Positions 1 to 43,387 of a stretch of 64,000 bases of DNA are shown piece after piece. A program made the translations under genes and the position numbers. Where the stretch lies: NCBI GenBank assembly GCA_964607655.1, contig CAZSKX010000001.1, positions 83,434-147,433 on the forward strand, read 5' to 3'. Every line of letters starts with the position of its first letter. The first letter of the stretch is position 1. The notes below the pieces were generated by a model. It had not been told where the DNA came from, did not search any database, and saw only the letters and a program-made list of their open reading frames with translations. The DNA comes from an uncultured Candidatus Saccharibacteria bacterium (GTDB lineage Bacteria; Patescibacteriota; Minisyncoccia; Phycocordibacterales; Phycocordibacteraceae).

Positions 1-147
1 GCGTGCCCAGAGCTCGCGCTCCAGCTCCCACCGCTCACGCCGTGGACGAGCTCGACCGACACCACCTTTAAGCCCTAATACGGCCCCAAAAGGGAATCAA
101 CACCCCCGGCCTTGCGCCGGGGGTGTTGTTTATGGTATAATGCAAGG

Positions 148-1107
148 GTGGTAAAACGACATCTTTTAGGGGGGGTGGTAAGCGTCTTTGCGGGTGCCAT
201 TTTTGGCATTTTCACCCTCGCGTTTGTCAGCAACCATCTCTTAAACTCGCCTTCGCTCGCGGCGGTGATTTCGGCTGTGCTTGTCGACCTGACCAATGGC
301 GATCGAGCCGCGCACACGGTCGGCGGCCTCTCGGTAAATCCTCTCCTCACCGCCGCTGCACAGGCCAAGGCCAACGACATGGCAGCGCGCGGCTACTTCG
401 CGCACGTCTCCCCAGACGGGAAGAATTCCTGGTACTGGTTCCGCGAAGCGGGGTACTCCTTTATCTACGCGGGAGAAAATCTCGCGGTAGATTTCTATGA
501 TTCGGGAGATGTCGAGCGTGCGTGGATGAACTCACCGACCCATCGTCGAAATATCCTCGATGGCAACTTTACCGAGATCGGGATCGCGACGGCGCAAGGG
601 ACCTATCAAGGCCGCCCGACTACGTTCGTCGTACAGATGTTCGGCACTCCAGCGCGCGCTACCGCAGCCGTAGCTCCGGTACGCACGACGGCCTCGCCAG
701 CGGAGCCGACCGAGCCAGCACTCGCGACGACAGCGTTTGCTACGACCTCCACGGTTACGTCACCAGCCGCGGCTACGACCGTAGCCTCCGCGGTTACGGA
801 TCTGAACGCCTCACCAGAGACGACAGAGACTCCTGTGCTCGGTACTGCTGCGACCGGTCTCGCGACTCCCGATCAGGCTCCATGGTGGCAGCACCTCCTC
901 GCTTCGCCTAAGGAGCTTATGCGCTACGGTTACTATGCACTTTCTATAATCGTGCTCGGTGTGCTCGCGTACGTGACTGAGCTCGAGTTCCATCGTCGCC
1001 ATACGAGGCACCTCGTCGCGGCGATCGTACTCTTAGTCTTGATGGTGGCACTCATCGTTTTGGCAAATGTCTTCCTCTTCACGCAGCCGGTTATTGCTGC
1101 GCTCTAG
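148..1107 (+). CDS. Membrane-anchored SCP/CAP (cysteine-rich secretory protein family) domain protein with a Thr/Ala/Pro-rich linker and a C-terminal transmembrane segment. The start is uncertain (GTG at 148 or 175); the track ORF start at 112 lies inside an upstream hairpin.
   Basis: CAP/SCP motif block GYFAHVSPDGKNSWYWF...YAGENLA...WMNSPTHRRNIL. N-terminal hydrophobic helix, TAP-rich low-complexity spacer, C-terminal TM helix. Extended -10 TGgTATAAT at 132-140 just upstream. Confidence 0.6.
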   Translation: MVKRHLLGGVVSVFAGAIFGIFTLAFVSNHLLNSPSLAAVISAVLVDLTNGDRAAHTVGGLSVNPLLTAAAQAKANDMAARGYFAHVSPDGKNSWYWFREAGYSFIYAGENLAVDFYDSGDVERAWMNSPTHRRNILDGNFTEIGIATAQGTYQGRPTTFVVQMFGTPARATAAVAPVRTTASPAEPTEPALATTAFATTSTVTSPAAATTVASAVTDLNASPETTETPVLGTAATGLATPDQAPWWQHLLASPKELMRYGYYALSIIVLGVLAYVTELEFHRRHTRHLVAAIVLLVLMVALIVLANVFLFTQPVIAAL

Positions 1108-5870: not shown

Positions 5871-7580
5871 ATGTACTCATTGTCAAGTAGTTTAGCCAAG
5901 GCCGTGATACACTTGGGATCTATGACACAGGGCGAGGCACTGACGATACTCAAGACGGGCGCCAACGTGTTTCTCACTGGCGAGCCGGGGAGCGGCAAGA
6001 CGCACACGATCAACGAGTTTGTCGCCTGGCTGCGCGCGAGCGGGGTCGAGCCCTCGATCACCGCGGCCACCGGTATCGCCGCGACGCACGTGGGCGGGAT
6101 GACGCTCCACTCCTGGAGCGGGATCGGGATCAATGAGTCGCTCTCGAGAAGCGAGGTGGATTTCATCGCGAGCAAAGAACGCATCGCCAAGCGGATCGCG
6201 AAAGCGAAAGTCTTGATAATCGAAGAAGTCTCGATGCTTGCAGCGCACACCTTCGAGATGGCAGATGCTGTCTGTAGGGAAGTGCGGCGAGTCGATGGGC
6301 CGTTTGGCGGGCTCACGGTTATTCTCGTGGGCGACTTCTTCCAGCTCCCGCCGGTGTCGCGAACGGGTGATGTGCAGTTTGCCTATGAGTCGCGCACCTG
6401 GCGCGACCTCCACCTCCTGACCTGCTATCTCACCGAACAGTTTCGACAGGACGATGCTGACTTTCTCGAGGTGCTCTCAGCGATCCGGCGAGGCGAGGTC
6501 GAAGAGCTCCACTTCGAGCATTTACAGGCACGTCAGGTCGGTGGCGAAGCGTTGCCAGAAGGCGCGCCGAAACTTTATTCCCATAATGCTGACGTTGATC
6601 GGCTGAACAACACCGAGCTCGCGAAGCTGCCGGGGAAAACGTACCCCTTTCGCATGGCGAGTAAGGGGAAGGACTCGCTCGTCGAAGGGCTGAAGCGCGG
6701 CTGTCTCTCACCCGAGAATCTCGAGCTTAAAGAAGGGGCGGTCGTGATGTTTACCAAGAATTCGCCGCAAGGGAAGTTTGTGAATGGGACGCTCGGCGTC
6801 GTCGAAGGGTGGGGAAGTGACGGATACCCCGTGGTGAAAACACGAGAAGGGACGAAGGTGACTGCCGAGCCGATGGAGTGGCAGCTCGAGGAACACGGTA
6901 AGGTGAAGGCGAGTGTCTCGCAGGTGCCGCTCCGGCTCGCGTACGCGATGACGGTACATAAGAGCCAGGGGATGAGTATGGACGCTGCGGTGATCGACCT
7001 CTCGAAGGCGTTTGAATACGGACAGGGGTACGTCGCGCTCTCGCGCGTGCGCCGCCTCGCCGGGGTGCACCTCCTGGGGATCAATCAGCGCGCGCTCGAG
7101 GTGCACCCCGAGATCCTCGAGAAGGACCAGGGATTCCGCGCCGCCTCAGAGGCGGCGCGCGAAGCCTTCGATGCGATGCCGCAGCCTGAAGTCGATGCGA
7201 TGCAGAAGAAGTTTGTAAAGGCGATGGGTGGCGCGTGGAGTACGGGTGCGATTGTGAAAAAGGGAAAGACGAAAAGCGCGGCTCTGCCGGGGCGTCTCGC
7301 GGAGACGCTTCAAGCAGTGAGAGACGGCTCGTCACTCAAGAGTGTTGCTAAAGAGCGTGGTCTCGCTGTCTCGACGGTCGTGACGCATCTCGAAGAGCTC
7401 GCCGAGCTCGGTAAGCTTACACGCGAAGATTTTATCCATCTGGTACCCACCGACTCTCTCGATGAGATCCATGAAGCGTTTAGAGAAGAGCAGAGCGATA
7501 AGCTCTCGCCAGTTTTTCATGCGCTGAAGGGTCGCTACTCGTTTGAAGTTCTTCGACTCGCGCGGCTTGCACGCTTGTAG
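5871..7580 (+). CDS. PIF1/RecD-family (AAA_30) ATP-dependent DNA helicase with a C-terminal helix-turn-helix region.
   Basis: Walker A LTGEPGSGKTHTI; PIF1-like motifs (LIIEEVSM, VGDFFQLPPV, MTVHKSQGMSMD...YVALSRV). C-terminal HTH-like SLKSVAKERGLAVSTVVTHLEEL. Confidence 0.8.
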   Translation: MYSLSSSLAKAVIHLGSMTQGEALTILKTGANVFLTGEPGSGKTHTINEFVAWLRASGVEPSITAATGIAATHVGGMTLHSWSGIGINESLSRSEVDFIASKERIAKRIAKAKVLIIEEVSMLAAHTFEMADAVCREVRRVDGPFGGLTVILVGDFFQLPPVSRTGDVQFAYESRTWRDLHLLTCYLTEQFRQDDADFLEVLSAIRRGEVEELHFEHLQARQVGGEALPEGAPKLYSHNADVDRLNNTELAKLPGKTYPFRMASKGKDSLVEGLKRGCLSPENLELKEGAVVMFTKNSPQGKFVNGTLGVVEGWGSDGYPVVKTREGTKVTAEPMEWQLEEHGKVKASVSQVPLRLAYAMTVHKSQGMSMDAAVIDLSKAFEYGQGYVALSRVRRLAGVHLLGINQRALEVHPEILEKDQGFRAASEAAREAFDAMPQPEVDAMQKKFVKAMGGAWSTGAIVKKGKTKSAALPGRLAETLQAVRDGSSLKSVAKERGLAVSTVVTHLEELAELGKLTREDFIHLVPTDSLDEIHEAFREEQSDKLSPVFHALKGRYSFEVLRLARLARL

Positions 7581-7871: not shown

Positions 7872-7910
7872 GGGCCCAGGCGCGCACGCGCGCCTGGGCC
7901 TAGCTTTTTT
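7872..7910 (+). terminator. Rho-independent terminator.
   Basis: GGCCCAGGCGCG-CACG-CGCGCCTGGGCC followed by TAGCTTTTTT. Confidence 0.8.
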
Positions 7911-7936: not shown

Positions 7937-9148
7937 ATGCCTGAGGCGAAAATTACTGAGATTTTAAGCCGCCCTACGGTCTCGATTATCGAGCTGGTGG
8001 ACGCGCTCATCAGCGAAGCGCACTCCCGAGGAGCCTCGGATATACACGTAGATCCGTGTAAGGAGATGCTCCGGGTGCGGCTCCGTATCGACGGCGTCCT
8101 CACCGAGGCGTACCAATTCCCCAAGACGATCCACTCCGAGGTGATCGCTCGCGTGAAGATCCTCTCAGGCATGCGTACCGACGAACACCAGGCGACCCAG
8201 GACGGACGCTTCCGCCACCATTTTGATACTGGTGAGACGCTCGATATGCGTGTCTCGATCGCCCCTACCTACCATGGGGAAAATTTAGTACTCCGCCTCC
8301 TCTCCGACAGCGCGGCAAATCATACGCTCGAGATGCTCGGCTTTAGCGAGCAGGACCAGAAGAAGATCATGACCGCGATCAAGCGACCGCACGGCATGAT
8401 CCTCTCGACGGGCCCGACGGGAAGTGGTAAGACCACTTCGCTCTACACGATTATCAAGATGCTCAACACGCCAGGCGTGTCGATCGTCACGATCGAAGAT
8501 CCGATCGAGTACGCGGTTGACCACATCGAGCAGATCCAGGTGAACGCGCCGGCGGGACTCACGTTTGCAAACGGGCTCCGCTCCATCCTCCGCCAAGACC
8601 CGAACATCATCATGGTGGGCGAGATCCGTGACAGCGAGACAGCGACGATCGCCGTGAACACGGCGCTCACCGGCCACCTCCTCCTCTCGACGCTGCACAC
8701 TAACGACGCAGCAACCACGCTCCCACGCCTGCTCGATATGGGGATCGACACCTACCTCGTGGCCTCGACGATCAACATTGCGATCGGGCAACGACTCGTG
8801 CGCAAAATCTGCCCGGAGTGTAAGGAGGCGCATAAGATCACGCCTACCGAGGCCGCTGCGCTCGCGGTGATCCCGCTTAATACGCCGGTAAATGAGGGCG
8901 ATACCTTCTATCGTGGCAAAGGGTGTAAGGAATGTGGCAACTCGGGCTACACAGGACGACTTTGCATCAGCGAGGTGCTGGTCGCCGACAACGAGATCCG
9001 CGAAGCGATCATGCGCAAAGCCTCGGCCGCGGAGCTGCGAAATATTGCTATAAAGGGAGGTATGACCACCATGCTCGAAGACGGCTTCGCCAAGGCGCGC
9101 GATGGCCGCACTAGTATCGAAGAAGTGCTCCGCGTGGTATACGAGTAG
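7937..9148 (+). CDS. pilB: Type IV pilus / type II secretion assembly ATPase, PilB/GspE family. Short form lacking the N-terminal GSPII_E_N domain.
   Basis: Walker A GPTGSGKTT; Asp/His boxes; C-terminal tetracysteine CPEC...CKEC zinc motif typical of PilB/GspE but not PilT. Confidence 0.85.
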   Translation: MPEAKITEILSRPTVSIIELVDALISEAHSRGASDIHVDPCKEMLRVRLRIDGVLTEAYQFPKTIHSEVIARVKILSGMRTDEHQATQDGRFRHHFDTGETLDMRVSIAPTYHGENLVLRLLSDSAANHTLEMLGFSEQDQKKIMTAIKRPHGMILSTGPTGSGKTTSLYTIIKMLNTPGVSIVTIEDPIEYAVDHIEQIQVNAPAGLTFANGLRSILRQDPNIIMVGEIRDSETATIAVNTALTGHLLLSTLHTNDAATTLPRLLDMGIDTYLVASTINIAIGQRLVRKICPECKEAHKITPTEAAALAVIPLNTPVNEGDTFYRGKGCKECGNSGYTGRLCISEVLVADNEIREAIMRKASAAELRNIAIKGGMTTMLEDGFAKARDGRTSIEEVLRVVYE

Positions 9149-9154
9149 AGACAC

Positions 9155-10396
9155 ATGAGCAACGAAACCTTGATCAAGATTAAGAAGATTCGTGATCGGG
9201 TGACTCCTGCGCAGTCTCTCCGTATGCCACAGATGCCGGGGCTCCCAAAGTTTTCTAAATTTTCAATACCGCAGTTCTCAAAAAAGGGTGGGCTAGGAGT
9301 AGGTAAGCCAGGAACGTCCACATACTCGCTCAGCATGTCGATGGTCCGTTTCTCGTCTAAGGACCAGACACTCTTCGCAAAACGTCTCTCTTTTCTTATT
9401 AAAGCGGGCGTGCCGATCGTCGAATCGCTCCTCTTGCTGCGCACTCAGACGAAGAACAAAGGTAAGGCGCGCGTGCTCGACGCGGTAATCGCAGACGTCT
9501 CGAGCGGGCAGCATCTCTCTACGTCACTCGGGAAATTCAACCGCCTCTTCGGTGACTTCGCAGTGAACTTGATCCGTGTGGGAGAGACGAGCGGTATCTT
9601 GAGCCAGAACCTCGTGTATCTTGCCGAGGAACTACAGAAAAAGCAGGCCCTCCAACGCAAAGTGATCGGGGCGCTCGTGTACCCGATATTTATTAGTGTT
9701 GCAACGATCGGCGTCACCGCGATGCTGACGGCGTACATCTTCCCGAAACTCATGCCGATCTTTACGAGTCTCCACGTTGAACTCCCGCTCACCACGCGCG
9801 CGATGATCGCGGCCTCCGCCTATATCCGCAACTGGGGGTTGCTCACGGCACTGGGTATCGTCTTGTTTATCATGCTGTTTCTCTTTATCCGAAGCCGTTT
9901 CGAGCCGTTTCGTAAGGCGACCGATCGCCTGGTCCTCTATCTACCGCTCGCCGGCAGCATCGTGAAGACCTACAACCTCACCAACTTCACTCGTACTCTC
10001 GGGCTCATGCTGAAGAGTGGTATCAAGCTCACTGCTGCACTCGAGGTGACCGCCGACAGCACCAAGAATCGGGTGTACCGTGACGCCTGTAGGCACATGG
10101 CGACGCTCGTTGTGCGCGGTGAGCCGATCTCTAAAGGGCTCGCGGCGCACCCGCGTCTGTATCCCGACATCCTCACGCACATGGTGGCAGTGGGTGAGCG
10201 CACGGGCTCGCTCTCGAACACCCTCGCGTATCTTGGCGAGATGTATGAGAGCGAGGTCGATGATGCGACGAAGTCGCTCTCGAGCTCGATCGAGCCAGTA
10301 CTGATGATCTTTATGGGGCTCATGGTGGGAACGGTCGCAGTGTCGGTCATCACGCCGATCTACGACATCACGCAGCATCTTAATCCAAAAGGCTAA
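9155..10396 (+). CDS. pilC: Type IV pilus inner-membrane platform protein, PilC/GspF family.
   Basis: Two T2SSF-type repeats, three TM segments, typical length (413 aa). Positioned directly after pilB. Confidence 0.85.
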   Translation: MSNETLIKIKKIRDRVTPAQSLRMPQMPGLPKFSKFSIPQFSKKGGLGVGKPGTSTYSLSMSMVRFSSKDQTLFAKRLSFLIKAGVPIVESLLLLRTQTKNKGKARVLDAVIADVSSGQHLSTSLGKFNRLFGDFAVNLIRVGETSGILSQNLVYLAEELQKKQALQRKVIGALVYPIFISVATIGVTAMLTAYIFPKLMPIFTSLHVELPLTTRAMIAASAYIRNWGLLTALGIVLFIMLFLFIRSRFEPFRKATDRLVLYLPLAGSIVKTYNLTNFTRTLGLMLKSGIKLTAALEVTADSTKNRVYRDACRHMATLVVRGEPISKGLAAHPRLYPDILTHMVAVGERTGSLSNTLAYLGEMYESEVDDATKSLSSSIEPVLMIFMGLMVGTVAVSVITPIYDITQHLNPKG

Positions 10397-10397
10397 T

Positions 10398-10832
10398 ATG
10401 AACCGCGGTATGACCATGGTCGAGATACTGGTGACGCTCGCGATCTTCGCGCTCATCGTCGCGCTCGGACTTTTTATGAGCTTCGAGGCCTACCGTGGCG
10501 CGACGCGCCGGAGCGAGCGCGACACGATCGTCAGCCTGCTTGAGCGCGCGCGTAGCCGCGCGATGGCGAATATCGACCAAAGCGCGTGGAGCGTCTGCTA
10601 CGACGCAGGGAACTACATCATCGCGAAAGGTGCCTCTTGTAGCGACGCGATCGCCCATGACCGCGTCGAAGCGAACGCGGGCGTTGCGGCAGCGTCAAGC
10701 TTCAGCTCAACGTTCCCAACGGTAGAGTTCGAGCAGCTCACGGGGAACACTACCGCCGAAACCATTACCGTGGTGCAGGACGGCAAGAACGCAGTGATAA
10801 CAACCAACCATGAAGGCCGCATCAACTGGTAA
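10398..10832 (+). CDS. Prepilin-type (class III signal) pseudopilin / minor pilin.
   Basis: N-terminus MNRG|MTMVEILVTLAIFALIV: Gly-1, hydrophobic +1, Glu+5, hydrophobic helix. Confidence 0.7.
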   Translation: MNRGMTMVEILVTLAIFALIVALGLFMSFEAYRGATRRSERDTIVSLLERARSRAMANIDQSAWSVCYDAGNYIIAKGASCSDAIAHDRVEANAGVAAASSFSSTFPTVEFEQLTGNTTAETITVVQDGKNAVITTNHEGRINW

Positions 10833-12330
10833 ATTCCATAGGGGGGTGAGTATCGTCGAGATCCTGATCGCGCTCGCGATCCTGACCCTCACTGTCTCGG
10901 CGGTGATTATGGTCGTCTTCGGTAATCAGTCCCTCGCTGTCGATACCCAGACGAATATCGAAGCGTTGGCGAAGGCGCAGTCAGAACTGGAAGAAATCCG
11001 AAAGACGGCCAAAGGCAACTTTGTGGATGCGGTAACGGTCCCAACTCACGACTGGACTCCGCTAGGAGGATTAACCTACACCGCTTCCACTTCCGTGCGT
11101 GATGTGAACAAATGTCTGAAGCAGGCAACCAGTACTGTTTCTTGGACGATGGGCGGGCGTCATCTTGACGTATCTCTCACGACGTTTCTTTCCGATGTCG
11201 AAGAGGCCCTTGCGCTTGGTGGTCATTGTGCCACACCCCCAAAGGGCAAGTGGCAGACATTGGCTTCTGTGAGTGGCGGCGACGGCAGTGTCCACGCCAC
11301 AGACGTGTACGCGAAAGACGGGTACGCATTCGTCTCGGCCTACTCAGTGGCGGCCGGACCGGCAAAGAAGCCCGACCTGCTTATTTATTCTTACGACCCA
11401 GGGCCACCCAAAAGTGTGAATGAACACGGGACTCTGGACACCGCCGATATTCCGGCGCTGAGTACAAGTAACGGACTCAATGATCTCGTGGTAGTGGGTG
11501 ATTACGTGTACGCCGCGAATAACCAGAAGAATCAGCAGTTAGTTATCATCGATGTTGCAGACGTCGAGGATCCTCAATTCGTCAGCTCGGTGAATCTACC
11601 GAATATTACTAGCGGTTTTACATGCAATAACCCAACCAACTGTTTGCCGGGTGCTCGTAGTATTTATTATTACGACGGTTATCTATATATAGGAACCGGG
11701 TATCTTAGTTTCGGAACAGCTACCGAGAACCACGAATTTTATGTGTACTGTATTTCAGACACCAGTGTCCCGCTGTGTGCCCCAACGACTCCGGTCTTTA
11801 TTGGCAGCGTAAACATAGATCACAACGTAAATGATATCGTGGTGCGGGACGGATTCGCATACCTGGCTACGTCTGATGATCTTGGGGAGCTGACTATCGT
11901 TGATCTTAGTGACCTTAGCGCGTCGCCAGTACTCGTTAACGCGCCTGGGGATGACAATCGACATGGACTCAGTTTGTACCTAATCGGTAAGAAGCTCTAT
12001 CTGGGACGAGTCGAGGGATCAGCGGTCAAGCCGAATTTTATAATCTATGACGTTACGACCGGGGGAAGCGTGTCGTCGTGCGGCTCATGCGCTAAGCATC
12101 TTTCGTCTGGGAATATAAATGCGATTACGGTTTTCGACGACACGGCGTTTTTAGTCACAGAAGAAAAGCTAGAGATCCTCAACGTACAGAACTCATCAGA
12201 TATAAAAAACATTGCGTCATTGGCGTTACCAAAAGAGGGTACGGGCATTGATTATGATAGCGATTATCTCTACGTGCCGATAGTGGATCAGGGCGCGTAC
12301 CTCTTAAACATCTACTATTCAGGACCCTAG
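10810..12330 (+). CDS. Large pilin-like protein: prepilin N-terminal helix fused to an LVIVD-repeat beta-propeller. Candidate pilus tip/adhesin subunit.
   Basis: KFHRG|VSIVEILIALAILTL class III signal, then repeated LVIVD-type segments (LVVVGDYVYAANN...QLVIIDVADVEDP; IVVRDGFAYLATS...LTIVDLSDL; LEILNVQNSSD). Confidence 0.65.
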   Translation: MKAASTGKFHRGVSIVEILIALAILTLTVSAVIMVVFGNQSLAVDTQTNIEALAKAQSELEEIRKTAKGNFVDAVTVPTHDWTPLGGLTYTASTSVRDVNKCLKQATSTVSWTMGGRHLDVSLTTFLSDVEEALALGGHCATPPKGKWQTLASVSGGDGSVHATDVYAKDGYAFVSAYSVAAGPAKKPDLLIYSYDPGPPKSVNEHGTLDTADIPALSTSNGLNDLVVVGDYVYAANNQKNQQLVIIDVADVEDPQFVSSVNLPNITSGFTCNNPTNCLPGARSIYYYDGYLYIGTGYLSFGTATENHEFYVYCISDTSVPLCAPTTPVFIGSVNIDHNVNDIVVRDGFAYLATSDDLGELTIVDLSDLSASPVLVNAPGDDNRHGLSLYLIGKKLYLGRVEGSAVKPNFIIYDVTTGGSVSSCGSCAKHLSSGNINAITVFDDTAFLVTEEKLEILNVQNSSDIKNIASLALPKEGTGIDYDSDYLYVPIVDQGAYLLNIYYSGP

Positions 12331-12334
12331 ACGT

Positions 12335-12760
12335 ATGCGCGGATTCTCACTCATCGAAACGATCGTCTATATCGCGCTTCTGGGATTCATTATGTCGGGG
12401 GCGGTCATCACTGCGTATCAGGTAACGCAGAGCTCGTTTGTCGTGAGCGAGAAGGACACGGTCCAGGAGGAAGGGAACTTTGTGTTACGCAAGCTCGAGC
12501 ACGCGTTTGTTGGGGCACAAGACCTATACGTTAGCGGGAGCTTGCTTTCGGTCGATCCCTACACGGGATCGAATATCGTGTTCACTCTGTCTGGAGGCGC
12601 CCTGTTTGTAAATCGTGGATCAGGGGCAAAAGCGCTCACTACTGATAACGTTACGGTAAACAGCCTTGTTTTTACTGGGCATGCTGGCCCGCCTAAGGGG
12701 GTAACGGTGCAGTTCACTCTCGATGGGGAAGTGTTTACGCTTACAAAATATGTACGCTAA
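12335..12760 (+). CDS. Minor pilin (prepilin-type N-terminus).
   Basis: MRG|FSLIETIVYIALLGFIM with Glu+5. Confidence 0.65.
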   Translation: MRGFSLIETIVYIALLGFIMSGAVITAYQVTQSSFVVSEKDTVQEEGNFVLRKLEHAFVGAQDLYVSGSLLSVDPYTGSNIVFTLSGGALFVNRGSGAKALTTDNVTVNSLVFTGHAGPPKGVTVQFTLDGEVFTLTKYVR

Positions 12761-13148
12761 TTCGCACAAAGGCTTTATCGCACTGATGTCAGCCGTGATC
12801 ATTTCGGTGGTCCTGCTTCTCACGGTCGTAACGGGCGCCCTCTCGGGGATCTTCGCCCGGTCGAATGTGCTCGATGCTGAGCTGAAGACTCGGAGTAGGG
12901 CAGTGGCTGACGCTTGCCTCGAGCAGGCGCGGCTGCTTATCGCGAACAACTCCGCGTATGTCGCGGATGAGTATCAGAAGTTTAATGATCTGGATAGCTG
13001 CTATTTAGACGTTGACGATTCGGGGGCAGTTAAGCAGATATGGATACAAGGCAGCTCGACAGCAGCAGTCACGAATCTGGACGTGCTTTACGACCACCTT
13101 GCAGATCCGCCGAGCTTTATCTCTATAGAGGAGGTAGATAACCTCTAG
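12750..13148 (+). CDS. Minor pilin-like protein (prepilin-like N-terminus lacking Glu+5). Start overlaps the upstream stop.
   Basis: MYANSHKG|FIALMSAVIISVVLLLTVV hydrophobic helix. Position within the pilin gene block. Confidence 0.5.
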   Translation: MYANSHKGFIALMSAVIISVVLLLTVVTGALSGIFARSNVLDAELKTRSRAVADACLEQARLLIANNSAYVADEYQKFNDLDSCYLDVDDSGAVKQIWIQGSSTAAVTNLDVLYDHLADPPSFISIEEVDNL

Positions 13149-13226
13149 GCTTGCATTATTGATGAGATCTTGTATAGTCGCGGTAGGTAGCCCGTAGGGG
13201 CATATTTATTCAATAAATACAGATAA

Positions 13227-13679
13227 ATGAAGAAATTTAACAAAGCAGGAGGCTTTACGCTCATTGAGCTTCTCGTGGTGATCGGCATCATCGCGATCCT
13301 CGCTGCTATCGTTATCGTAGCTATCAATCCAGCTAAGCGCTTTGCTGACGCTCGTCAGAGCCAGCGCGCAGCTAACATTGAATCGATCTTAAGTGCTCTG
13401 CAGCAGAACATGGTAGACAACAACGGTATTCTTACTGGATCTGGATGCGACTCGATTCCGTCCGCAACCTCGACCATTGCTACCGGCCAGATCGACCTCG
13501 CGTCATGCTTGGCGGATTATCTAGCTATATTGCCTCTAAATCCGAGCACAACTACGGCTAAGTGGGAGAATAGCGGTGACTACTACACTGGATATCAGAT
13601 AAGAAAGTATGGCACCAATCAGATTGCAGTGATTGCTCCCGCAGAAGGAGTCGATCCGCAGATTATGGTCATTCGCTAA
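13227..13679 (+). CDS. pilA: Major type IV pilin (PilA-like).
   Basis: MKKFNKAGG|FTLIELLVVIGIIAILAAIVIVAI canonical class III signal with Glu+5. 150 aa. Strong terminator downstream. Confidence 0.8.
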   Translation: MKKFNKAGGFTLIELLVVIGIIAILAAIVIVAINPAKRFADARQSQRAANIESILSALQQNMVDNNGILTGSGCDSIPSATSTIATGQIDLASCLADYLAILPLNPSTTTAKWENSGDYYTGYQIRKYGTNQIAVIAPAEGVDPQIMVIR

Positions 13680-13702
13680 AGAATCCAATTCTTTAAATCA
13701 AA

Positions 13703-13727
13703 AACGCCCCGGCCGGGGCGTTTTTGA
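13703..13727 (+). terminator. Rho-independent terminator after the major pilin gene.
   Basis: CGCCCCGGCCGGGGCG followed by TTTTTGATTTT. Confidence 0.8.
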
Positions 13728-13852
13728 TTTTCATAAACTTCATCCACGCTTCAGTACACAAAGACTTTAATTAAGAAGCTCCTGACGTGGCGCAGCTCTA
13801 CGAGCTGGGCGAGGGTCATTAGCATTTTATTCGATCTTAAATTCTTATTATT

Positions 13853-15502
13853 ATGCCTCAATTATCATTCAGTGTTCGTTCACTCGCTGCGGCGGGCGTA
13901 AGCGTCGCGGCGCTCCTTGCGTTCGCCGCACCCACGTTCGCAGCACAAAGCCCAGCGGGCTGTAGTGCGGACAATAGTGTTGTGAATATCGCGAGTGATG
14001 TCTCAACATCTACCGCAGGAGACACCATCACCATTACGGTGCGTGCGGGTAACCCCACATCCGTCGTTGACGATGGGTGCGACATTACCGGTCGCACCAT
14101 GACCCTCACGCTCCCTGACGGGACGCAGAGCGTCTTTGGTCCCTTCAATTACCCGAATCCGACCGCACTCGAGTTCGTCGGCTCGGCTCCCTATGTCGCC
14201 GATAACGCAGACGCCGTAGGCGGCTTCTGGACAGCCAACGTCTCCTGGAACGGTACGCTCAAGAACGTCTCAGACGTCCCCTCGAGCGGGTCTAAGAACG
14301 CTGTAGTGGTGCAGATCCAAAAGGGTCGCATCATCGTCGATAAGGTGACTGACCCAGCGGCTGACCCGCAGTCGTTTGCCTTCACCACGAGCGGCACTGG
14401 CTACACAGGCTTTAGCCTGACCGACGCAGCCACGCCAAACGATCAAGAGCTCGACGCGGGCACTTACTCGGTAGCCGAAACAGCGGTTGCTGGTTGGACC
14501 CAAACGAGCGCGACCTGTACGGGCGGTGAGAATCCAGCGAACATCACCCTCGAAGCAGGGCAGACTGTTACCTGTACCTTCACCAACACCAAGAAGGGGC
14601 ACCTGATCGTCGAGAAGACGACCGTCCCTGGCGGTAGCGCCCAGAGCTTCGCGATCAATGCGTCAGGCACCGGTACCATCACAGGTGGCGGAGCCGGCTC
14701 GATCACTGATGCGACCGACAAGCATTACGAAGTTACTCCCGGTACGTACTCAGTCACCGAGACTCCGGTAGCGGGCTGGACAGAGACCTCAAACACCTGT
14801 GACGACGTCGTCGTGGCAGCGGGCGAGACCGAGACTTGTACGATCACCAACACACAGCAGTTGGGCCGGATCATCGTGGTCAAGCAGACCAATCCCGATG
14901 GCGACTTGCAAAGCTTCGAGTTCGACTCCAACTACGGCAGCAACTTCAATCTCGCCGATAACGGCCAGAACGATAGTGGAGAGCTTGCTGCGGGTACCTA
15001 CTCGGTAGCCGAGGTGAACATCCCTGCAAACTGGGCTCTCTCGAACGTCACTTGTAGCGATGGCTCAAATGCAAATAGTATCAATCTAGCGGCTGGTGAG
15101 ACGGTGACCTGTACCTTCACCAACACGTACACGCCACCGCCACCACCAGCGGGCGAGTACTGTAGTCCAGGGTACTGGAAGAATCATCCGCAGAGTTGGG
15201 TAGGGTATACGCCGAACCAGCTCTTCTCGAGTGTGTTCGAGAGCACGGCGATCAACTGGAGCGCCAAGGGTAAGCCCGGCTCAGTTGCTAACCCAACCCT
15301 CTTGCAAGCACTCGAGGGTAACGGCGGCGGCGTGACCTCACTCGCACGAGCTGCAGTCGGTGCACTCTTGAACGCTTCAGCGATCGACTCACCACTTGAA
15401 GTGGCTGACGTGATCAGCATCTTCAACGCTGCAAGCCCAAGTGGGAATCTCGAAGCGGCTAAGGCCGAGCTCACCTTCGCTGAGAACTGCCCACTTAACT
15501 AG
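13853..15502 (+). CDS. Secreted protein with a signal peptide, three tandem roughly 92-aa Cys-bracketed prealbumin/SdrD-B-like (SpaA-type) repeats and a C-terminal Cys-bounded domain.
   Basis: Signal peptide MPQLSFSVRSLAAAGVSVAALLAFAAPTFAAQS. Repeats share ...QSF.F...G...EL.AGTYSV.E...AGW....TC.....I.L.AGETVTCTFTNT. PPPPP linker. Confidence 0.65.
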   Translation: MPQLSFSVRSLAAAGVSVAALLAFAAPTFAAQSPAGCSADNSVVNIASDVSTSTAGDTITITVRAGNPTSVVDDGCDITGRTMTLTLPDGTQSVFGPFNYPNPTALEFVGSAPYVADNADAVGGFWTANVSWNGTLKNVSDVPSSGSKNAVVVQIQKGRIIVDKVTDPAADPQSFAFTTSGTGYTGFSLTDAATPNDQELDAGTYSVAETAVAGWTQTSATCTGGENPANITLEAGQTVTCTFTNTKKGHLIVEKTTVPGGSAQSFAINASGTGTITGGGAGSITDATDKHYEVTPGTYSVTETPVAGWTETSNTCDDVVVAAGETETCTITNTQQLGRIIVVKQTNPDGDLQSFEFDSNYGSNFNLADNGQNDSGELAAGTYSVAEVNIPANWALSNVTCSDGSNANSINLAAGETVTCTFTNTYTPPPPPAGEYCSPGYWKNHPQSWVGYTPNQLFSSVFESTAINWSAKGKPGSVANPTLLQALEGNGGGVTSLARAAVGALLNASAIDSPLEVADVISIFNAASPSGNLEAAKAELTFAENCPLN

Positions 15503-15532
15503 TTCTTTCACAACACGCCCATAGTGCGCCAG

Positions 15533-15561
15533 TCCACGCCGCCCTCACGGGCGGCGTGGAC
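15533..15561. terminator. Bidirectional terminator hairpin between convergent genes.
   Basis: GTCCACGCCGCCC-TCAC-GGGCGGCGTGGAC, 13-bp perfect stem. Confidence 0.6.
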
Positions 15562-24194: not shown

Positions 24195-27035
24195 GTGGCC
24201 TTCGATCATAAAAAAATTGAAAAAGAAGTACAGGCTAAGTGGGAGAGCCTGAATCTCTACGAGACCGATCTCGCGGACGACACAAAAGAACCGTACTATC
24301 TGCTCTGCGAGTTCCCGTATCCGTCGGGCGACCTGCACATCGGCCATTGGTACGCCTTCTCGGTGACCGATATCTACGCGCGTATCCTCCGCCTGCGCGG
24401 TAAGAATGTGCTCTTTCCGATAGGATTCGACGCGTTTGGGCTACCGGCAGAAAATGCTGCGATCAAGCACGGCCTCGATCCGAAGGAATGGACTTACGGC
24501 AATATCGAGCGCATGCGCGGCCAGCTCAAGAGCATGGGTGCGTCTTTCGACTGGAGTAAAGAGGTCGCTGCCTGCGACCCGAACTACTACCACTGGACGC
24601 AGGGGCTCTTTACCAAGCTCTTCGAGCACGGGCTCGCCGAGCATCGCGAGGCGAGTGTTAAGTGGTGCCCGAAGGACCTCACCGTGCTCGCGAACGAACA
24701 GATCATCGACGGCACGTGTGAACGTTGCGGAACCGAGGTAGAAGAGAAGCGTCTCACCCAGTGGTTCTTTAAGATTACGCAGTACGCCGAGCGCCTGCTC
24801 GAAGGGCTCGATACCCTCCCGTGGCGCGAAGAGATCAAGGAGGCACAGCGCGCATGGATCGGTAAGAGCGAAGGGGCTTATCTCGACTTCGCGGTCGCGG
24901 GTCGCGAGGAGAAGATTCGCGTCTTCACGACGCGGCCAGACACTCTTTTTGGATCCACGTACGTGGTGCTCGCGCCTGAACACTCTCTCGTACAGACTCT
25001 CGGCGATATTGTTTCTAATAAAGAAGAGGTCGACGCATATGTTAAAGCGACCGCGGCCAAGACCGAGCGCGAGCGCAGTGAGAATAAGGAGAAGACCGGC
25101 GTGTGTCTCGAGGGAGTGAAAGCGATTAACCCTGCGACTAAGGAGGAGATTCCAGTATACGTCGCCGACTATGTGCTCGGCTCTTACGGCACGGGTGCAG
25201 TGATGGCTGTCCCAGCCCATGACGAGCGCGACTTTGAATTCGCACAGAAATACAATCTTCCAATTAAGGATGTGGTGATGCCGGTGCTGCCTGATGTTTC
25301 TAATCCCCATCAGCCTGGCAAGGAGGTGGTATTCCGTAAAGCGACAATCAACGTCGTGTATGATCCAAAGAAGAAAAGATATCTCATTTTGAAATGGAAG
25401 AAGCAGCCGTGGATCACCTATGTGACGGGCGGTGTGGAGGAAGGGGAAGACCTCGTCGAGTCGGCAAAGCGAGAAATCGCAGAAGAGACGGGGTATACCG
25501 ATGTGAAGTTTGTGCGCAAGCTCGGCGGGGATGCGCAGGCAGAGTTCTACGCTGCTCATAAGGGTGTTAATCGGGTTGCGCGTAACTCCATGCTGTACTT
25601 TGAGCTACAGAGTGATCAGCGAGCTGACGTTGCCGAAGACGAGCAGGCACAACACGAAGTGGCGTGGGTAAGTAAAGACAAACTGCTCAAAACAAAGATC
25701 CAGCACTCAGAAGCGCAGCTGATACTCGATCGTCTCTTCGGCGGAATGGGTGCGCACACAGGGCCCGGGATACTTATTAGCTCCGGTGAGTTTGATGGCC
25801 GGTGGAACGAAGAGGCGAAGTGGGACATTGTTGCCTCTGCGGGAGGGGAGAAGGCCACGCAATATCGCCTGCGAGATTGGAGTATCTCGCGCCAGCGCTA
25901 CTGGGGCTGCCCGATCCCGGTCGTCTATGACCCAGAAGGGAAGCCGCATGCGATCCCAGCTGAGCATCTCCCGTGGCTCCTGCCGACCGATGTTGATTTC
26001 AAACCGACCGGCAACGCCTCGCCACTCGCGAGCTCGCAGGAGCTGAAAGATCGGGTGACGAGAATCTTTGGCGAGGGGTGGGCACCTGAGTTCGATACGC
26101 TCGACACCTTCGTCGACTCCTCGTGGTACTTCACGCGTTACCTCGATCCTAAGAATGATCACCAGTTCTCCGATCCTGCCCTGATGAAGAAGTGGTTGCC
26201 GGTGAATCGCTATTCGGGCGGGAGCGAGCACACGACCATGCACCTGCTCTACGCGCGCTTCTTCACCAAGGCGCTACATGATCTCGCACTCGTCGACTTT
26301 GACGAGCCATTTATCGAGCGCTTCAACCGCGGACTTATCCTCGGCCCCGACGGAGCGAAGATGAGCAAGTCGAAGGGGAACGTCATCAATCCCGACGAGT
26401 TTGTGCAGAAGTTTGGTGCTGATGCAGTGCGCATCTACCTGGCCTTTATCGGGCCATACAACGAACCGGGGAGCTATCCGTGGAATCTCGACGGGGTTAC
26501 CTCGATGCGTAAGTTCCTCGATCGCATAGAGCGCGTCGCCGATCGGGTCAACTTGGGGGTGAAACCCCCAAGTGAGGAGGAGGTGCTTAAGGGGGTGCTT
26601 GCAGTGGCGAGCCAGAAAATCTCAGTGGACGGTGATCGGTTTAAGTTCAACACAGCCGTGTCGGCACTGATGATCGCTCTTAACGAATTTGAATCTGCAG
26701 AGAGCGTCTCGATTGATGCGATGAAGACGTATCTCATTCTGCTTGCGCCATTCGCGCCGCATCTTGCTGAGCACCTCTGGGAGAAGCTTGGCGGGGAAGG
26801 CAGTGTGCACCAGCAGCCCTGGCCCGATCTTGCGGTCGAAGTAGCCGCTGAAGTAGAGGTGGTGGTGCAGGTTTCCGGTAAAAAGCGTGGGTCAATCACG
26901 CTGTCACTCGAGGCGTCAGAAGAGGAGGCTCTAGCTAGGGCGAAAGCCATACCTTCAGTCGCCACAGCCCTCGGGGACTCCGAGCCCAAACGGGTGGTGT
27001 ACGTGCCGGGCAAGATCCTTAACTTGGTCGTTTAG
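24195..27035 (+). CDS. leuS: Leucyl-tRNA synthetase carrying an inserted Nudix hydrolase domain (about residues 362-525) after the CP1 editing domain. Also contains copy 2 of the 24-nt palindromic element.
   Basis: HIGH (DLHIGHWYAF), CP1 (TRPDTLFGSTYVVLAPEH...GTGAVMAVPAHDERDFEFA), KMSKS, anticodon-binding and C-terminal domains. Nudix box GGVEEGEDLVESAKREIAEETGY matches GX5EX7REUXEEXGU exactly. Confidence 0.9.
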   Translation: MAFDHKKIEKEVQAKWESLNLYETDLADDTKEPYYLLCEFPYPSGDLHIGHWYAFSVTDIYARILRLRGKNVLFPIGFDAFGLPAENAAIKHGLDPKEWTYGNIERMRGQLKSMGASFDWSKEVAACDPNYYHWTQGLFTKLFEHGLAEHREASVKWCPKDLTVLANEQIIDGTCERCGTEVEEKRLTQWFFKITQYAERLLEGLDTLPWREEIKEAQRAWIGKSEGAYLDFAVAGREEKIRVFTTRPDTLFGSTYVVLAPEHSLVQTLGDIVSNKEEVDAYVKATAAKTERERSENKEKTGVCLEGVKAINPATKEEIPVYVADYVLGSYGTGAVMAVPAHDERDFEFAQKYNLPIKDVVMPVLPDVSNPHQPGKEVVFRKATINVVYDPKKKRYLILKWKKQPWITYVTGGVEEGEDLVESAKREIAEETGYTDVKFVRKLGGDAQAEFYAAHKGVNRVARNSMLYFELQSDQRADVAEDEQAQHEVAWVSKDKLLKTKIQHSEAQLILDRLFGGMGAHTGPGILISSGEFDGRWNEEAKWDIVASAGGEKATQYRLRDWSISRQRYWGCPIPVVYDPEGKPHAIPAEHLPWLLPTDVDFKPTGNASPLASSQELKDRVTRIFGEGWAPEFDTLDTFVDSSWYFTRYLDPKNDHQFSDPALMKKWLPVNRYSGGSEHTTMHLLYARFFTKALHDLALVDFDEPFIERFNRGLILGPDGAKMSKSKGNVINPDEFVQKFGADAVRIYLAFIGPYNEPGSYPWNLDGVTSMRKFLDRIERVADRVNLGVKPPSEEEVLKGVLAVASQKISVDGDRFKFNTAVSALMIALNEFESAESVSIDAMKTYLILLAPFAPHLAEHLWEKLGGEGSVHQQPWPDLAVEVAAEVEVVVQVSGKKRGSITLSLEASEEEALARAKAIPSVATALGDSEPKRVVYVPGKILNLVV
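26551..26574. repeat. Copy 2 of the 24-nt palindromic hairpin element (ACTTGGGGGTGAAACCCCCAAGTG), in-frame in leuS (encodes NLGVKPPSE).
   Basis: Identical to 2612-2635. Confidence 0.85.
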
Positions 27036-36543: not shown

Positions 36544-36944
36544 ATCATAAGCGTTTGTACCTCGCCGCGGCGATTATCGCGGGCGTTCTGGTGATCGGTT
36601 TCATACTTTCTGTGCCTCGGGTGCGCGATGGCGAGGTGCCTAAGGAGACGGTAGAAAGTACGATCCTGCCACCCGTTGCTCTCCGCGACACCTACAAAAA
36701 AGGTACCCACACGATCACGGGCACAGTGACTGCGCCGAACGCCTGTGCCACGCTCGAGGCGACCGCTACGACTACCGGCGATCCCGTCAGCGCGATCGTT
36801 ATCGAGCTCACTCTTAGAGAAGAAGGAGGGATTTGTCTGCAGGCGTCTACGCCACTCAAGTTCTCTACGACCGTTACTGCACCCGAAGGATTGCCGGTCA
36901 GCGCGATGGTGAACGGCGTTGTCGCGACAACGACCGCGCTATGA
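36540..36944 (+). CDS. Hypothetical secreted/membrane-anchored protein.
   Basis: Signal/anchor MNHKRLYLAAAIIAGVLVIGFILS. Thr-rich. Confidence 0.4.
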   Translation: MNHKRLYLAAAIIAGVLVIGFILSVPRVRDGEVPKETVESTILPPVALRDTYKKGTHTITGTVTAPNACATLEATATTTGDPVSAIVIELTLREEGGICLQASTPLKFSTTVTAPEGLPVSAMVNGVVATTTAL

Positions 36945-43286: not shown

Positions 43287-43387
43287 GCGATCGAATAGGG
43301 CAGGTGCAAGGCCTTGCTCACTGTAATTTGCTATTGTATAGTACGAATTGGTTTTCAGTTCCACATACGTCAGAAGGAGACAAGCAG

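What the first reader, a model, noticed from the sequence alone, without database searches (positions are those of the whole stretch)
7937..13727. Compact type IV pilus locus without secretin/alignment genes, carrying a pilin-anchored LVIVD beta-propeller
pilB (a short 403-aa form with the tetracysteine motif), pilC and five consecutive prepilin-type genes form one plus-strand block ending in a strong terminator. No pilM/N/O/P/Q or pilD is present in the window. That arrangement resembles monoderm/CPR-style pili. The second pilin gene (506 aa) fuses a class III signal/pilin helix to an LVIVD-repeat beta-propeller, which implies a large adhesive or tip-located subunit. Such a pilus could mediate host or cell attachment or DNA uptake.
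Basis: partly seen in the sequence, partly recalled or inferred. Interest (0 to 1): 0.6.

Follow-up and report, generated by a model that had tools for sequence, protein, structure and literature searches.

The report
Minimal CPR pilus operon, swappable propeller tip
This is a seven-gene operon for a stripped-down type IV pilus, common in ultrasmall Patescibacteria (CPR), in which one tip subunit carries a seven-bladed beta-propeller that differs sharply even between close relatives, as expected for a part that recognises a host or surface.

Summary
Window 7937-13730 holds one plus-strand block between two strong terminators. It encodes a short PilB/GspE-type ATPase (403 aa, tetracysteine motif), a PilC/GspF platform, four minor pilins in H-I-J-K order and a major pilin.

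The 506-aa second pilin has a class III signal, a pilin head and a seven-bladed LVIVD beta-propeller (AF2 pLDDT 89.6). The fifth 'pilin' (g6) has no Glu5 and no HMM hit. It is pilin-like only by its N-terminus and predicted lollipop shape, like K-type cap subunits.

The same seven-gene order recurs in about 40 of the 58 related loci compared, all Patescibacteria where reliably named. None has PilM/N/O/T/D or a secretin beside it. Gene content equals the Firmicute comG operon, but every ComG, PilB and GspE equivalog cut-off is missed, so it is a separate lineage.

The pilin-head-plus-propeller body of g4 is decoupled from the machinery. A syntenic relative has PilB 92% identical but a g4 body only 33% identical, with DNA similarity lost exactly over 10995-12340.

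The best reading is a minimal type IV filament with an exchangeable tip adhesin. DNA uptake is not excluded. This is a new variant of known kinds (CPR pili, modular pilins, the TM7x PilX2 propeller pilin).

The parts
7872..7901 (+). Strong intrinsic terminator ending the upstream PIF1-helicase unit. It marks the 5' boundary of the pilus operon.
   Evidence: 13-bp stem with 11 GC pairs followed by a T-run.
7937..9148 (+). Short extension ATPase (PilB/GspE type, 403 aa). It lacks the N-terminal N1/MshEN-type domain and has a tetracysteine Zn motif.
   Evidence: T2SSE 1e-121. GspE 482 bits, PilB 469, ComGA 252, all below the equivalog cut-offs, and the profile is matched only from position 107 (GspE) or 180 (PilB). 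Motifs. Homologues are 400-420 aa in more than 45 loci, with at least 6914 90%-identity clusters at E<=1e-100.
9155..10396 (+). Platform protein (PilC/GspF/ComGB type, 413 aa).
   Evidence: T2SSF 1.5e-51 with two repeats. GspF 284 bits and ComGB 151 bits, both below cut-offs.
10398..10832 (+). Minor pilin g3, H-type (GspH/FimU/ComGD-like). Leader MNRG|MTMVE.
   Evidence: N_methyl 22.3 bits and GspH 22.6 bits, both above cut-off. Weak ComGD/ComGE hits.
10810..12330 (+). Modular minor pilin g4 (506 aa) at the I position. Leader MKAASTGKFHRG|VSIVE, alpha1 helix at aa 11-69, four-stranded pilin head at aa 77-128, Cys102/Cys140, and a seven-bladed LVIVD beta-propeller at aa 148-504 (nt 11251-12321).
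   Evidence: LVIVD 25.0 bits against a 20.2 cut-off; weak ComGE/GspI hits. AF2 pLDDT 89.6, pTM 0.87, with 28 strands forming 7 blades. Foldseek matches only generic propellers. 61 full-length homologues.
10995..12340 (+). Replaceable or hypervariable block inside g4 (pilin head plus propeller). It is flanked by conserved sequence: the alpha1-coding 5' end and the start of g5.
   Evidence: blastn against the syntenic relative L059 gives 82% nt identity up to 10994, nothing over 10995-12340, and 71% again from 12341. At the protein level the N-terminal 55 aa are 87% identical and the rest 33%, while PilB is 92%.
12335..12760 (+). Minor pilin g5 at the J position. Leader MRG|FSLIE.
   Evidence: N_methyl in 28 of 28 family members. 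The head domain is unassigned by Pfam or PDB profile.
12750..13148 (+). g6, a K-type-like pilin (132 aa from the annotated start). Leader MYANSHKG|FIALM, no Glu5, with a conserved Cys56/Cys84 pair.
   Evidence: Family alignment. No Pfam or PDB sequence hit. AF2 gives helix 6-66 plus five strands, pLDDT 80.6. Foldseek is not significant. The 132-aa start comes from the public record.
13227..13679 (+). Major pilin candidate g7 (150 aa). Leader MKKFNKAGG|FTLIE, with Cys74/Cys94. It is preceded by the only sizeable intergenic gap in the operon (78 nt).
   Evidence: N_methyl 8.2e-8. Weak GspG and PilA hits restricted to the N-terminus. Last gene of the cassette in about 40 loci.
13695..13730 (+). 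Intrinsic terminator closing the operon.
   Evidence: 16-bp perfect stem, dG -24.8 kcal/mol, z = -6.0.
13853..15502 (+). Secreted SpaA-like (prealbumin-fold repeat) protein in a separate transcription unit. It may be functionally associated but is not a proven part of the system.
   Evidence: SpaA_4 7e-21 and SpaA_2 1e-17, with a signal peptide. A related protein lies within 6 kb of the cassette in 20 of 58 loci. It has its own terminator at 15532-15561.

Best explanation
The block is a self-contained operon for a minimal type IV filament of a Patescibacteria (CPR, Paceibacteria/Minisyncoccia-type) cell.

Proposed mechanism:
1. A prepilin peptidase encoded elsewhere cleaves the five pilins.
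2. The short PilB-type ATPase and the PilC platform polymerise the major pilin g7 from the membrane.
3. Assembly is primed by a four-subunit tip complex, g3-g5-g4-g6, equivalent to H-J-I-K or ComGD-GF-GE-GG. It is capped by the Glu5-less g6.
4. The I-type subunit g4 carries a rigidly attached seven-bladed LVIVD propeller. This places the propeller at the pilus tip, where it acts as the ligand-binding (adhesin) module, most likely for a host-cell or other surface.
5. Its head-plus-propeller body evolves or is exchanged independently of the machinery, between conserved flanks. This would retarget binding specificity.

Shown here: gene content and order, domain architecture, conservation of the cassette, absence of neighbouring accessory genes, and decoupling of the g4 body.
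Inferred: tip location, adhesin role, the ligand, independence from PilMNO and PilT, and the recombination mechanism.
For: - HMM assignments for the ATPase, platform and pilins. Prepilin motifs occur only in this block.
- The AF2 model of g4 is helix, pilin head and seven-bladed propeller, with pLDDT 89.6 and pTM 0.87. g6 is modelled as a lollipop shape without Glu5.
- The seven-gene order is conserved in about 40 of 58 loci from many Patescibacteria lineages.
- No second T2SSE-type ATPase (PilT) was found within 10 kb in any locus.
- No recurrent T4P accessory gene lies in the flanks. The recurrent neighbours are SpaA-like, CAP, PBP, DsbA-like and S41 proteins.
- The Com pilus shows that ATPase, platform, five pilins and a distant peptidase are sufficient for assembly. 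It also shows that the Glu5-less subunit caps a GD-GF-GE-GG tip complex (PMC10790768).
- In TM7x, a minor pilin bearing a beta-propeller (PilX2) is needed for efficient host binding but not for filament extrusion (PMC11623550).
- The g4 body is 33% identical between genomes whose PilB is 92% identical, and 58% identical to a more distant genome.
- Across locus pairs, Spearman correlation with PilB identity is 0.17 for the g4 body and 0.80 for PilC.
Against: - There are no experimental data for this family.
- No prepilin peptidase is in the window, and the rest of the genome could not be read.
- The propeller matches only generic WD40-like folds, and no ligand site is identifiable.
- g6's pilin fold is not confirmed by Foldseek.
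- H/I/J/K assignments rest on gene order, weak N-terminal HMM hits and the Glu5 pattern. No modelled complex supports them.
- CPR genomes commonly also carry PilM/N/O/T (PMC6744442), which might serve this cassette in trans.
- The decoupling of the g4 body could partly reflect saturation of a fast-evolving domain. Two triplets with reversed relatedness argue against that alone.
Confidence: 0.6

Rival explanations
1. It is a competence (DNA-uptake) pilus, the CPR counterpart of the Firmicute Com pilus. The filament captures extracellular DNA for ComEC-dependent import in organisms that cannot make nucleotides.
For: The gene content is identical to the comG operon, with the peptidase elsewhere. 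There is no PilT. CPR are thought to scavenge DNA, and ComEC is present in 86% of CPR genomes (PMC6744442). Weak ComGD/ComGE/ComGC-type HMM hits were found.
Against: All ComGA, ComGB and ComGC equivalog cut-offs are missed, and the ATPase scores about twice as high to GspE/PilB as to ComGA. The major pilin is last rather than third in the operon. No comEA, comEC or dprA lies in the window or recurs in the flanks. A large hypervariable propeller fits a variable ligand better than DNA. In TM7x the propeller-pilin system was dispensable for competence.
Confidence: 0.2
2. The cassette is not autonomous. It is the pilin/ATPase half of a conventional CPR type IVa-like pilus whose PilM/N/O, PilT and PilD are encoded elsewhere and are shared with it.
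For: PilD must be elsewhere in any case. PilB/T/C/M/N/O/D co-localise in many CPR genomes (PMC6744442). TM7x splits one system over two loci. The rest of the 464-kb contig could not be inspected.
Against: In 58 loci the seven genes travel together with no T4P accessory gene within 6-10 kb. The Com pilus shows this gene set suffices apart from the peptidase. The ATPase lacks the N-terminal domain seen in full-length PilB/GspE.
Confidence: 0.25
3. It is a type II-secretion-like endopilus that pushes proteins across the CPR cell wall or S-layer, for example the neighbouring SpaA-like surface protein.
For: The best HMM scores for the ATPase, platform and g3 are to GspE, GspF and GspH. A SpaA-like secreted protein lies within 6 kb in 20 of 58 loci, and directly downstream on the same strand in the window, L033, L038, L043 and L059.
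Against: There is no secretin and no GspC/L/M. A strong terminator separates the SpaA-like gene from the operon. 38 of 58 loci have no such neighbour. An endopilus has no obvious use for a large variable tip propeller.
Confidence: 0.08

Closest known systems
Com pilus of Firmicutes (comGA-GG operon plus comC; Mom et al. 2023, PMC10790768)
   Same: Both are seven-gene operons with one extension ATPase lacking a long N-terminal domain, one platform, one major pilin and four minor pilins, the last of which lacks Glu5. In both, the peptidase is elsewhere and there is no PilM/N/O, PilT or secretin. Both belong to cells without an outer membrane.
   Different: ComGA, ComGB and ComGC equivalog cut-offs are not met. 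The major pilin is the last gene, not the third. The I-type minor pilin carries a 360-aa propeller. The host lineage is Patescibacteria, not Firmicutes. No link to competence genes was seen.
Nanosynbacter lyticus TM7x T4P-2 with the PilX2 minor pilin (Grossman et al. 2024, PMC11623550)
   Same: Both are CPR pili whose large minor pilin carries a seven-bladed beta-propeller. For PilX2, deletion showed it is needed for efficient host binding but not for filament extrusion.
   Different: PilX2 has RCC1 repeats and a non-canonical signal. g4 has LVIVD repeats and a canonical G|VSIVE signal with Glu5. T4P-2 uses PilM2/N2/O2 and is split over two loci, whereas this cassette is compact and has none of them.
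Modular type IV pilins (Raynaud et al. 2021, PMC8179133)
   Same: [quoted passage not shown] Dataset S1 of that paper already lists IPR012902-IPR013211(xN) architectures, including CPR proteins. IPR013211 is the LVIVD entry by my own recollection.
   Different: That entry is only a catalogue line marked 'unknown function'. It gives no operon context, structure or variability analysis.
PilY1/PilC tip adhesins of type IVa pili with the FimU-PilVWX minor pilins
   Same: A beta-propeller is presented at the pilus tip by an H-I-J-K minor-pilin complex and acts in adhesion.
   Different: PilY1 is not a pilin and binds the complex non-covalently. Here the propeller is part of the I-type pilin. There is no PilY1/PilC Pfam hit, and PilY1 is not among the top 50 Foldseek matches.
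Type II secretion pseudopilus (GspE/F/G/H/I/J/K)
   Same: The best-scoring HMMs for the ATPase, platform and g3 are the Gsp models. The minor-pilin order is H-I-J-K.
   Different: There is no secretin and no GspC/L/M. All equivalog cut-offs are missed. The ATPase lacks the N1E domain that binds GspL.

Membership tests
Type IV filament superfamily (core machinery) | Extension ATPase of the T2SSE family with Walker A/B, Asp and His boxes | tested here: met
   PF00437 E=1e-121. Motifs at residues 159, 183, 224 and 252.
Type IV filament superfamily (core machinery) | Polytopic platform protein with two T2SSF repeats | tested here: met
   PF00482 E=1.5e-51 with two stretches.
Type IV filament superfamily (core machinery) | Pilins with a class III signal peptide (G-1, hydrophobic helix, Glu5) | tested here: met
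   Four canonical motifs, all in the block. N_methyl above cut-off for g3, g5 and g7. g6 lacks Glu5, like K-type subunits.
Type IV filament superfamily (core machinery) | Prepilin peptidase (Peptidase_A24) | tested here: not met
   Not found among about 55 window ORFs or as a recurrent neighbour in 58 loci. The rest of the genome is not readable here. The Com pilus peptidase is likewise a distant loner.
Com pilus (ComG system) | ComGA, ComGB and ComGC equivalog scores (NCBIfam) | tested here: not met
   ComGA 252 against 300, ComGB 151 against 240, ComGC 23 against 75 bits.
Com pilus (ComG system) | Seven-gene operon of ATPase, platform and five pilins, with the last minor pilin lacking Glu5 | tested here: met
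   The gene order differs, with the major pilin last.
Com pilus (ComG system) | Dedicated role in DNA uptake under competence regulation | not testable with these tools
   No competence genes lie nearby. A function assay is needed.
Type IVa pilus | PilM/N/O(/P) alignment complex, PilQ secretin and PilT retraction ATPase | tested here: not met
   None in the window. No second T2SSE homologue within 10 kb in any of 58 loci. No recurrent accessory cluster. Presence elsewhere in the genome was not testable.
Type IVa pilus | Full-length PilB (TIGR02538 equivalog) | tested here: not met
   469 bits against 675.65, and only profile positions 180-563 are matched.
Type II secretion system | GspE equivalog, GspD secretin and GspC/L/M | tested here: not met
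   GspE 482 against 630 bits. No secretin or GspC/L/M hits in the window.
Modular type IV pilins | N-terminal pilin module plus a C-terminal domain not specific to pilus biology | tested here: met
   AF2 model with helix 11-69, head 77-128 and propeller 148-504. LVIVD HMM hit.
LVIVD-repeat beta-propellers (PF08309) | HMM score above the gathering threshold and a beta-propeller fold | tested here: met
   25.0 bits against 20.2. Homologues reach E=3.7e-15. 28 strands form 7 blades. Foldseek finds propellers at E about 1e-8.
PilY1/PilC adhesins | PilY1/PilC C-terminal propeller domain in a non-pilin protein | tested here: not met
   No such Pfam hit. Not in the top 50 Foldseek PDB matches. g4 is itself a pilin.
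TM7x PilX2-type propeller pilins | RCC1-repeat propeller and a non-canonical signal peptide | tested here: not met
   No RCC1 hit, and a canonical signal with Glu5. PilX2 description from PMC11623550. No direct sequence comparison was possible.

The most novel reading that the evidence does not exclude
The head-plus-propeller body of g4 is a horizontally exchangeable host-recognition cassette. Homologous recombination between the conserved alpha1-coding 5' end and the g5 start would swap propeller alleles among Paceibacteria lineages. This would retarget the tip adhesin of a minimal pilus, and so the host range of these episymbionts, much as phages swap receptor-binding proteins. If true, propeller alleles would be a readable marker of host specificity in uncultured CPR.
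Probability: 0.3. Interest if true: 0.7.

Novelty: new variant of a known kind. Interest (0 to 1): 0.45.

Why it matters
Most Patescibacteria are uncultured, and how they find and hold their hosts is largely unknown outside one Saccharibacteria model. This cassette is very common in the large Paceibacteria/Minisyncoccia branch. It needs only seven genes plus a peptidase, and it carries one clearly demarcated variable module at the predicted pilus tip.

That gives three things:
- a concrete candidate for the host-recognition determinant, which can be tested by binding assays on the recombinant propeller;
- a second natural example, outside the Firmicutes, of a minimal type IV filament for studying assembly;
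- a sequence marker, the propeller allele, that could be correlated with host co-occurrence in metagenomes.

Tried and rejected
- The look-up of encoding contigs for the window's own g4 returned nothing on record. The source genome was also not among the GTDB representatives (best hit 37% identity). As a result pilD, pilT, pilMNO and comEC elsewhere on the 464-kb contig could not be checked.
- The 56-sequence alignment was too divergent for locus searching. A closer 11-sequence alignment worked.
- PDB profile searches with the g4, g5 and g6 family alignments gave nothing beyond N-terminal pilin helices.
- Foldseek on the g6 model gave no significant match. Its pilin identity rests on architecture and context.
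I rebuilt it from a database search.
- There is no paralogue or silent copy of the g4 propeller in the window, so a Neisseria pilS-like donor array next to the locus is rejected.
- A literature search for 'LVIVD' plus 'pilin' found one unrelated paper. Searches for comG genes together with CPR found none linking the two.
- Labels such as 'uncultured Candidatus Saccharibacteria' (TPA bins) and 'Bacillota' (L025) on loci with the complete cassette were treated as unreliable taxonomy.

Full report
**Observation**

- The first ORF (7937-9148, 403 aa) matches T2SSE at E=1e-121. It carries Walker A (residue 159), Asp box (183), Walker B (224), His box (252) and two CxxC pairs, CPEC at 292 and CKEC at 330.
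- It aligns only to positions 107-485 of the GspE profile and 180-563 of the PilB profile. It cannot be longer, because 7937 is the first start codon after a stop. It is therefore a true short form lacking the N-terminal domain.
- The second ORF (9155-10396) is a T2SSF platform (E=1.5e-51).
- A six-frame scan for G|(F/M/V)xxxE prepilin motifs found four in the whole 64-kb window, all in this block.
- g3, g5 and g7 pass the N_methyl threshold. g4 is just below it, but its Glu17 is kept in at least 90% of 56 homologues.
- g6 has no HMM or PDB sequence hit. Its family keeps a G-F-I-A-L hydrophobic N-terminus without Glu5 and a conserved cysteine pair.
- The AF2 model of g6 (pLDDT 80.6) is a 60-residue helix followed by a five-stranded sheet. 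Foldseek gave no significant match, so its pilin nature rests on architecture and context.
- The block is bounded by a strong terminator at 7872-7901 and a 16-bp-stem terminator at 13695-13730 (dG -24.8 kcal/mol, z -6.0).
- Genes are tightly packed, with gaps of 1-6 nt or overlaps of 11 and 23 nt. The exception is a 78-nt gap before the major pilin gene.

**The 506-aa protein**

- Pfam LVIVD scores 25.0 bits against a cut-off of 20.2. Homologues reach E=3.7e-15.
- With a 56-sequence alignment, AF2 gave pLDDT 89.6 and pTM 0.87. The model has helix 11-69, a four-stranded pilin head at 77-128, then 28 strands between 148 and 504, which makes seven four-stranded blades.
- Cys102 and Cys140, which are invariant or nearly so in the family, lie in the head and the linker.
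- Foldseek against the PDB returned only generic propellers such as Cdc4, NUP43, DDB1 and a phosphotriesterase. PilY1 was not in the top 50.
- A PDB profile search found nothing significant.
- The fusion of a class III signal and pilin to an LVIVD propeller is therefore real.

**Context and distribution**

- The window looks like a Patescibacteria genome. It has a DUF5671 protein, a 623-aa AlaRS and housekeeping genes, with no tRNA or Rfam hit.
- None of about 55 ORFs scanned is a prepilin peptidase, PilT, PilM/N/O or a secretin.
- g4 has 61 full-length homologues in the word-indexed database.
- An exhaustive profile search found 10,379 50%-identity clusters at E<=1e-30. At least 110 of the best 150 are 440-600-aa full-length pilin-propellers. 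The remainder are giant multi-propeller proteins.
- The short ATPase has at least 6,914 90%-identity clusters at E<=1e-100. Sources name them PilB or GspE/PulE, from Minisyncoccia and Nomurabacteria.
- A scan of species-representative genomes gave 54 loci in Nomura-, Kaiser-, Giovannoni-, Lloyd-, Zambryski-, Brenner- and Doudnabacteria, Paceibacterota and Minisyncoccia.
- BLAST mapping shows the order ATPase-platform-g3-g4-g5-g6-g7 in about 40 of them. There is never a second T2SSE-type ATPase within 10 kb.
- Clustering 894 flanking ORFs found no recurrent pilus accessory gene. The recurrent neighbours are SpaA-like secreted proteins (20 of 58 loci), CAP-domain proteins (9), a PBP (8), a DsbA-like thioredoxin (6) and an S41 protease (6).
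- The cassette therefore travels as a unit of exactly seven genes.

**What it resembles**

- The content equals the Com pilus of Firmicutes: a seven-gene operon with ATPase, platform and five pilins, and the peptidase as a distant loner. That set has been shown to be necessary and sufficient for assembly.
- The Com tip complex is GD-GF-GE-GG, equivalent to H-J-I-K, and is capped by the only subunit lacking Glu5 (PMC10790768).
- Here the order g3 (GspH Pfam hit, weak ComGD), g4 (weak ComGE/GspI), g5, g6 (no Glu5) reproduces H-I-J-K, with the major pilin moved to the end.
- Membership in the known families fails on score. ComGA is 252 against 300 bits, ComGB 151 against 240, ComGC 23 against 75, PilB 469 against 675 and GspE 482 against 630.
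- It works like a Com-type minimal filament but belongs to a separate lineage.
- The absence of a secretin in CPR and the wide occurrence of PilB/T/C/M/N/O/D there are already published (PMC6744442).
- Modular pilins are a described class. The IPR012902-IPR013211(xN) architecture is listed in that study's dataset as of unknown function (PMC8179133). The identification of IPR013211 with LVIVD is from my memory.
- A propeller-bearing minor pilin, PilX2 (RCC1 type), is required for efficient host binding by Saccharibacteria TM7x but not for filament extrusion or competence (PMC11623550).

**The added finding**

- A 22-kb metagenomic contig (L059) is syntenic with the window from the FAD oxidase gene through the SpaA-like gene. 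Amino-acid identities are FAD oxidase 92%, RNase T 94%, PIF1 89%, PilB 92%, PilC 84% and g3 77%. g4 is only 39% identical, and g5, g6 and g7 are 65%, 68% and 58%.
- Within g4, the first 55 residues after the cleavage site are 87% identical and the rest 33%.
- At the DNA level the two sequences align at 82% identity up to window position 10994. There is no detectable similarity over 10995-12340, and similarity resumes at 12341, the start of g5.
- A more distant contig (L060, PilB 79%) has a g4 that is 59% identical along its whole length. Relatedness is therefore reversed for this segment.
- The same reversal occurs in a second triplet. L005-L007 have PilB 86% and g4 body 35%, while L001-L005 have PilB 77% and g4 body 65%. 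For L008, the best g4-body match (58%) is L019, whose PilB is only 61% identical.
- Over about 600-1,000 locus pairs, Spearman correlation with PilB identity is 0.80 for PilC, 0.57 for the g4 N-terminus and 0.17 for the g4 body.
- The head-plus-propeller module is thus decoupled from the machinery and flanked by conserved sequence. This pattern is expected for a ligand-recognition module under diversifying selection or allelic exchange.
- No silent copy exists in the window.

**Mechanism and rivals**

I consider it most likely (0.6) that this is an autonomous minimal type IV filament. In this reading the H-J-I-K-type tip complex displays the g4 propeller as an adhesin for a host or other surface, and g4 allele turnover sets specificity.

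- A competence role (0.2) fits the gene content and the CPR lifestyle. It does not fit the HMM scores, the lack of linked competence genes or the hypervariable propeller.
- Dependence on PilMNO/PilT encoded elsewhere (0.25, not exclusive) cannot be excluded without the whole genome.
- A secretion endopilus serving the neighbouring SpaA-like proteins (0.08) is weakly suggested by the adjacency. The terminator between the operon and that gene, and the tip propeller, argue against it.

**Verdict**

The system is common rather than exceptional in CPR, and its elements are each known in kind. The compact Com-like cassette outside the Firmicutes, the propeller on the I-type subunit, and the sharply bounded exchangeable module are, as far as my literature searches show, not described. 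I rate it a new variant of a known kind, of moderate interest.

Noticed in passing
window 24195-27035 (+): The leucyl-tRNA synthetase (946 aa) has a NUDIX hydrolase domain (aa 381-509, E=8.6e-13) inserted just after the editing domain (aa 219-364). This is an unusual fusion.
   Followed up: no
window 13853-15502 (+); also L033 13625-17797, L038 13095-15524, L043 13545-16793, L059 12856-14982: A secreted SpaA-like (prealbumin-fold repeat) protein lies directly downstream of the pilus operon. A related protein is within 6 kb of the cassette in 20 of 58 loci, and it is the only strongly recurrent neighbour. In the window it is a separate unit between two terminators and has no LPXTG motif.
   Followed up: partly
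L058 9011-12415: A second LVIVD pilin (470 aa, signal FGH|STVE) sits outside the cassette. It is next to two sortase-like genes and small LPRTG-anchored proteins, which hints at a link between pilin-propellers and sortase-anchored surface proteins in some genomes.
   Followed up: partly
representative-library hits P0085-P0096 and others: The propeller profile also matches giant proteins of 3,000-6,000 aa with 10-18 propeller stretches. Two long proteins (P0085, 1998 aa; P0090, 1266 aa) begin with the pilin N-terminus, which suggests multi-propeller pilins.
   Followed up: no
L019, L022, L023, L025, L033, L043, L048 (g4 orthologues of 655-812 aa): Several orthologues of the propeller pilin carry an extra 150-300-aa C-terminal extension with no confident Pfam domain. 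One has a weak Big_3 hit.
   Followed up: partly
window 112-1107 (+); L001 4870-5904; L018 2768-3934; L059 1-243: CAP (cysteine-rich secretory protein) domain proteins recur within a few kb of the cassette, in 9 of 58 loci.
   Followed up: no
window 5871-7580 (+); L050 15018-16646: A PIF1-like helicase with a C-terminal HTH_40 domain lies immediately upstream of the operon. It is conserved in the close relative L059, and one is also near the cassette in L050.
   Followed up: no
window 36833-37810 (+) and 29815-30900 (+): Two odd domain combinations: an ATP-cone fused to an Mrr-type restriction endonuclease domain, and a Sigma70 region-4 protein with a HARE-HTH domain.
   Followed up: no
window 30941-32329, 33341-34894, 43304-44692, 47144-48355 (all +): Four large ORFs (403-517 aa) have no Pfam hit at E<=0.001. 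None is related to the g4 propeller.
   Followed up: no
L025 (JBLNCF010000002.1) and the many 'uncultured Candidatus Saccharibacteria' TPA bins (e.g. L008, L019): A contig labelled Bacillota carries the complete cassette with PilB 66% identical to the window's. Many TPA bins with Paceibacteria-like cassettes are labelled Saccharibacteria. These record names look unreliable as taxonomy.
   Followed up: no
L045, L054, L021: In these loci the four minor pilins and the major pilin are present, but BLAST finds no pilB or pilC upstream in the DNA held (about 10 kb in L045 and L054, about 4 kb in L021). The pilin half can therefore be separated from the motor half in some genomes.
   Followed up: no
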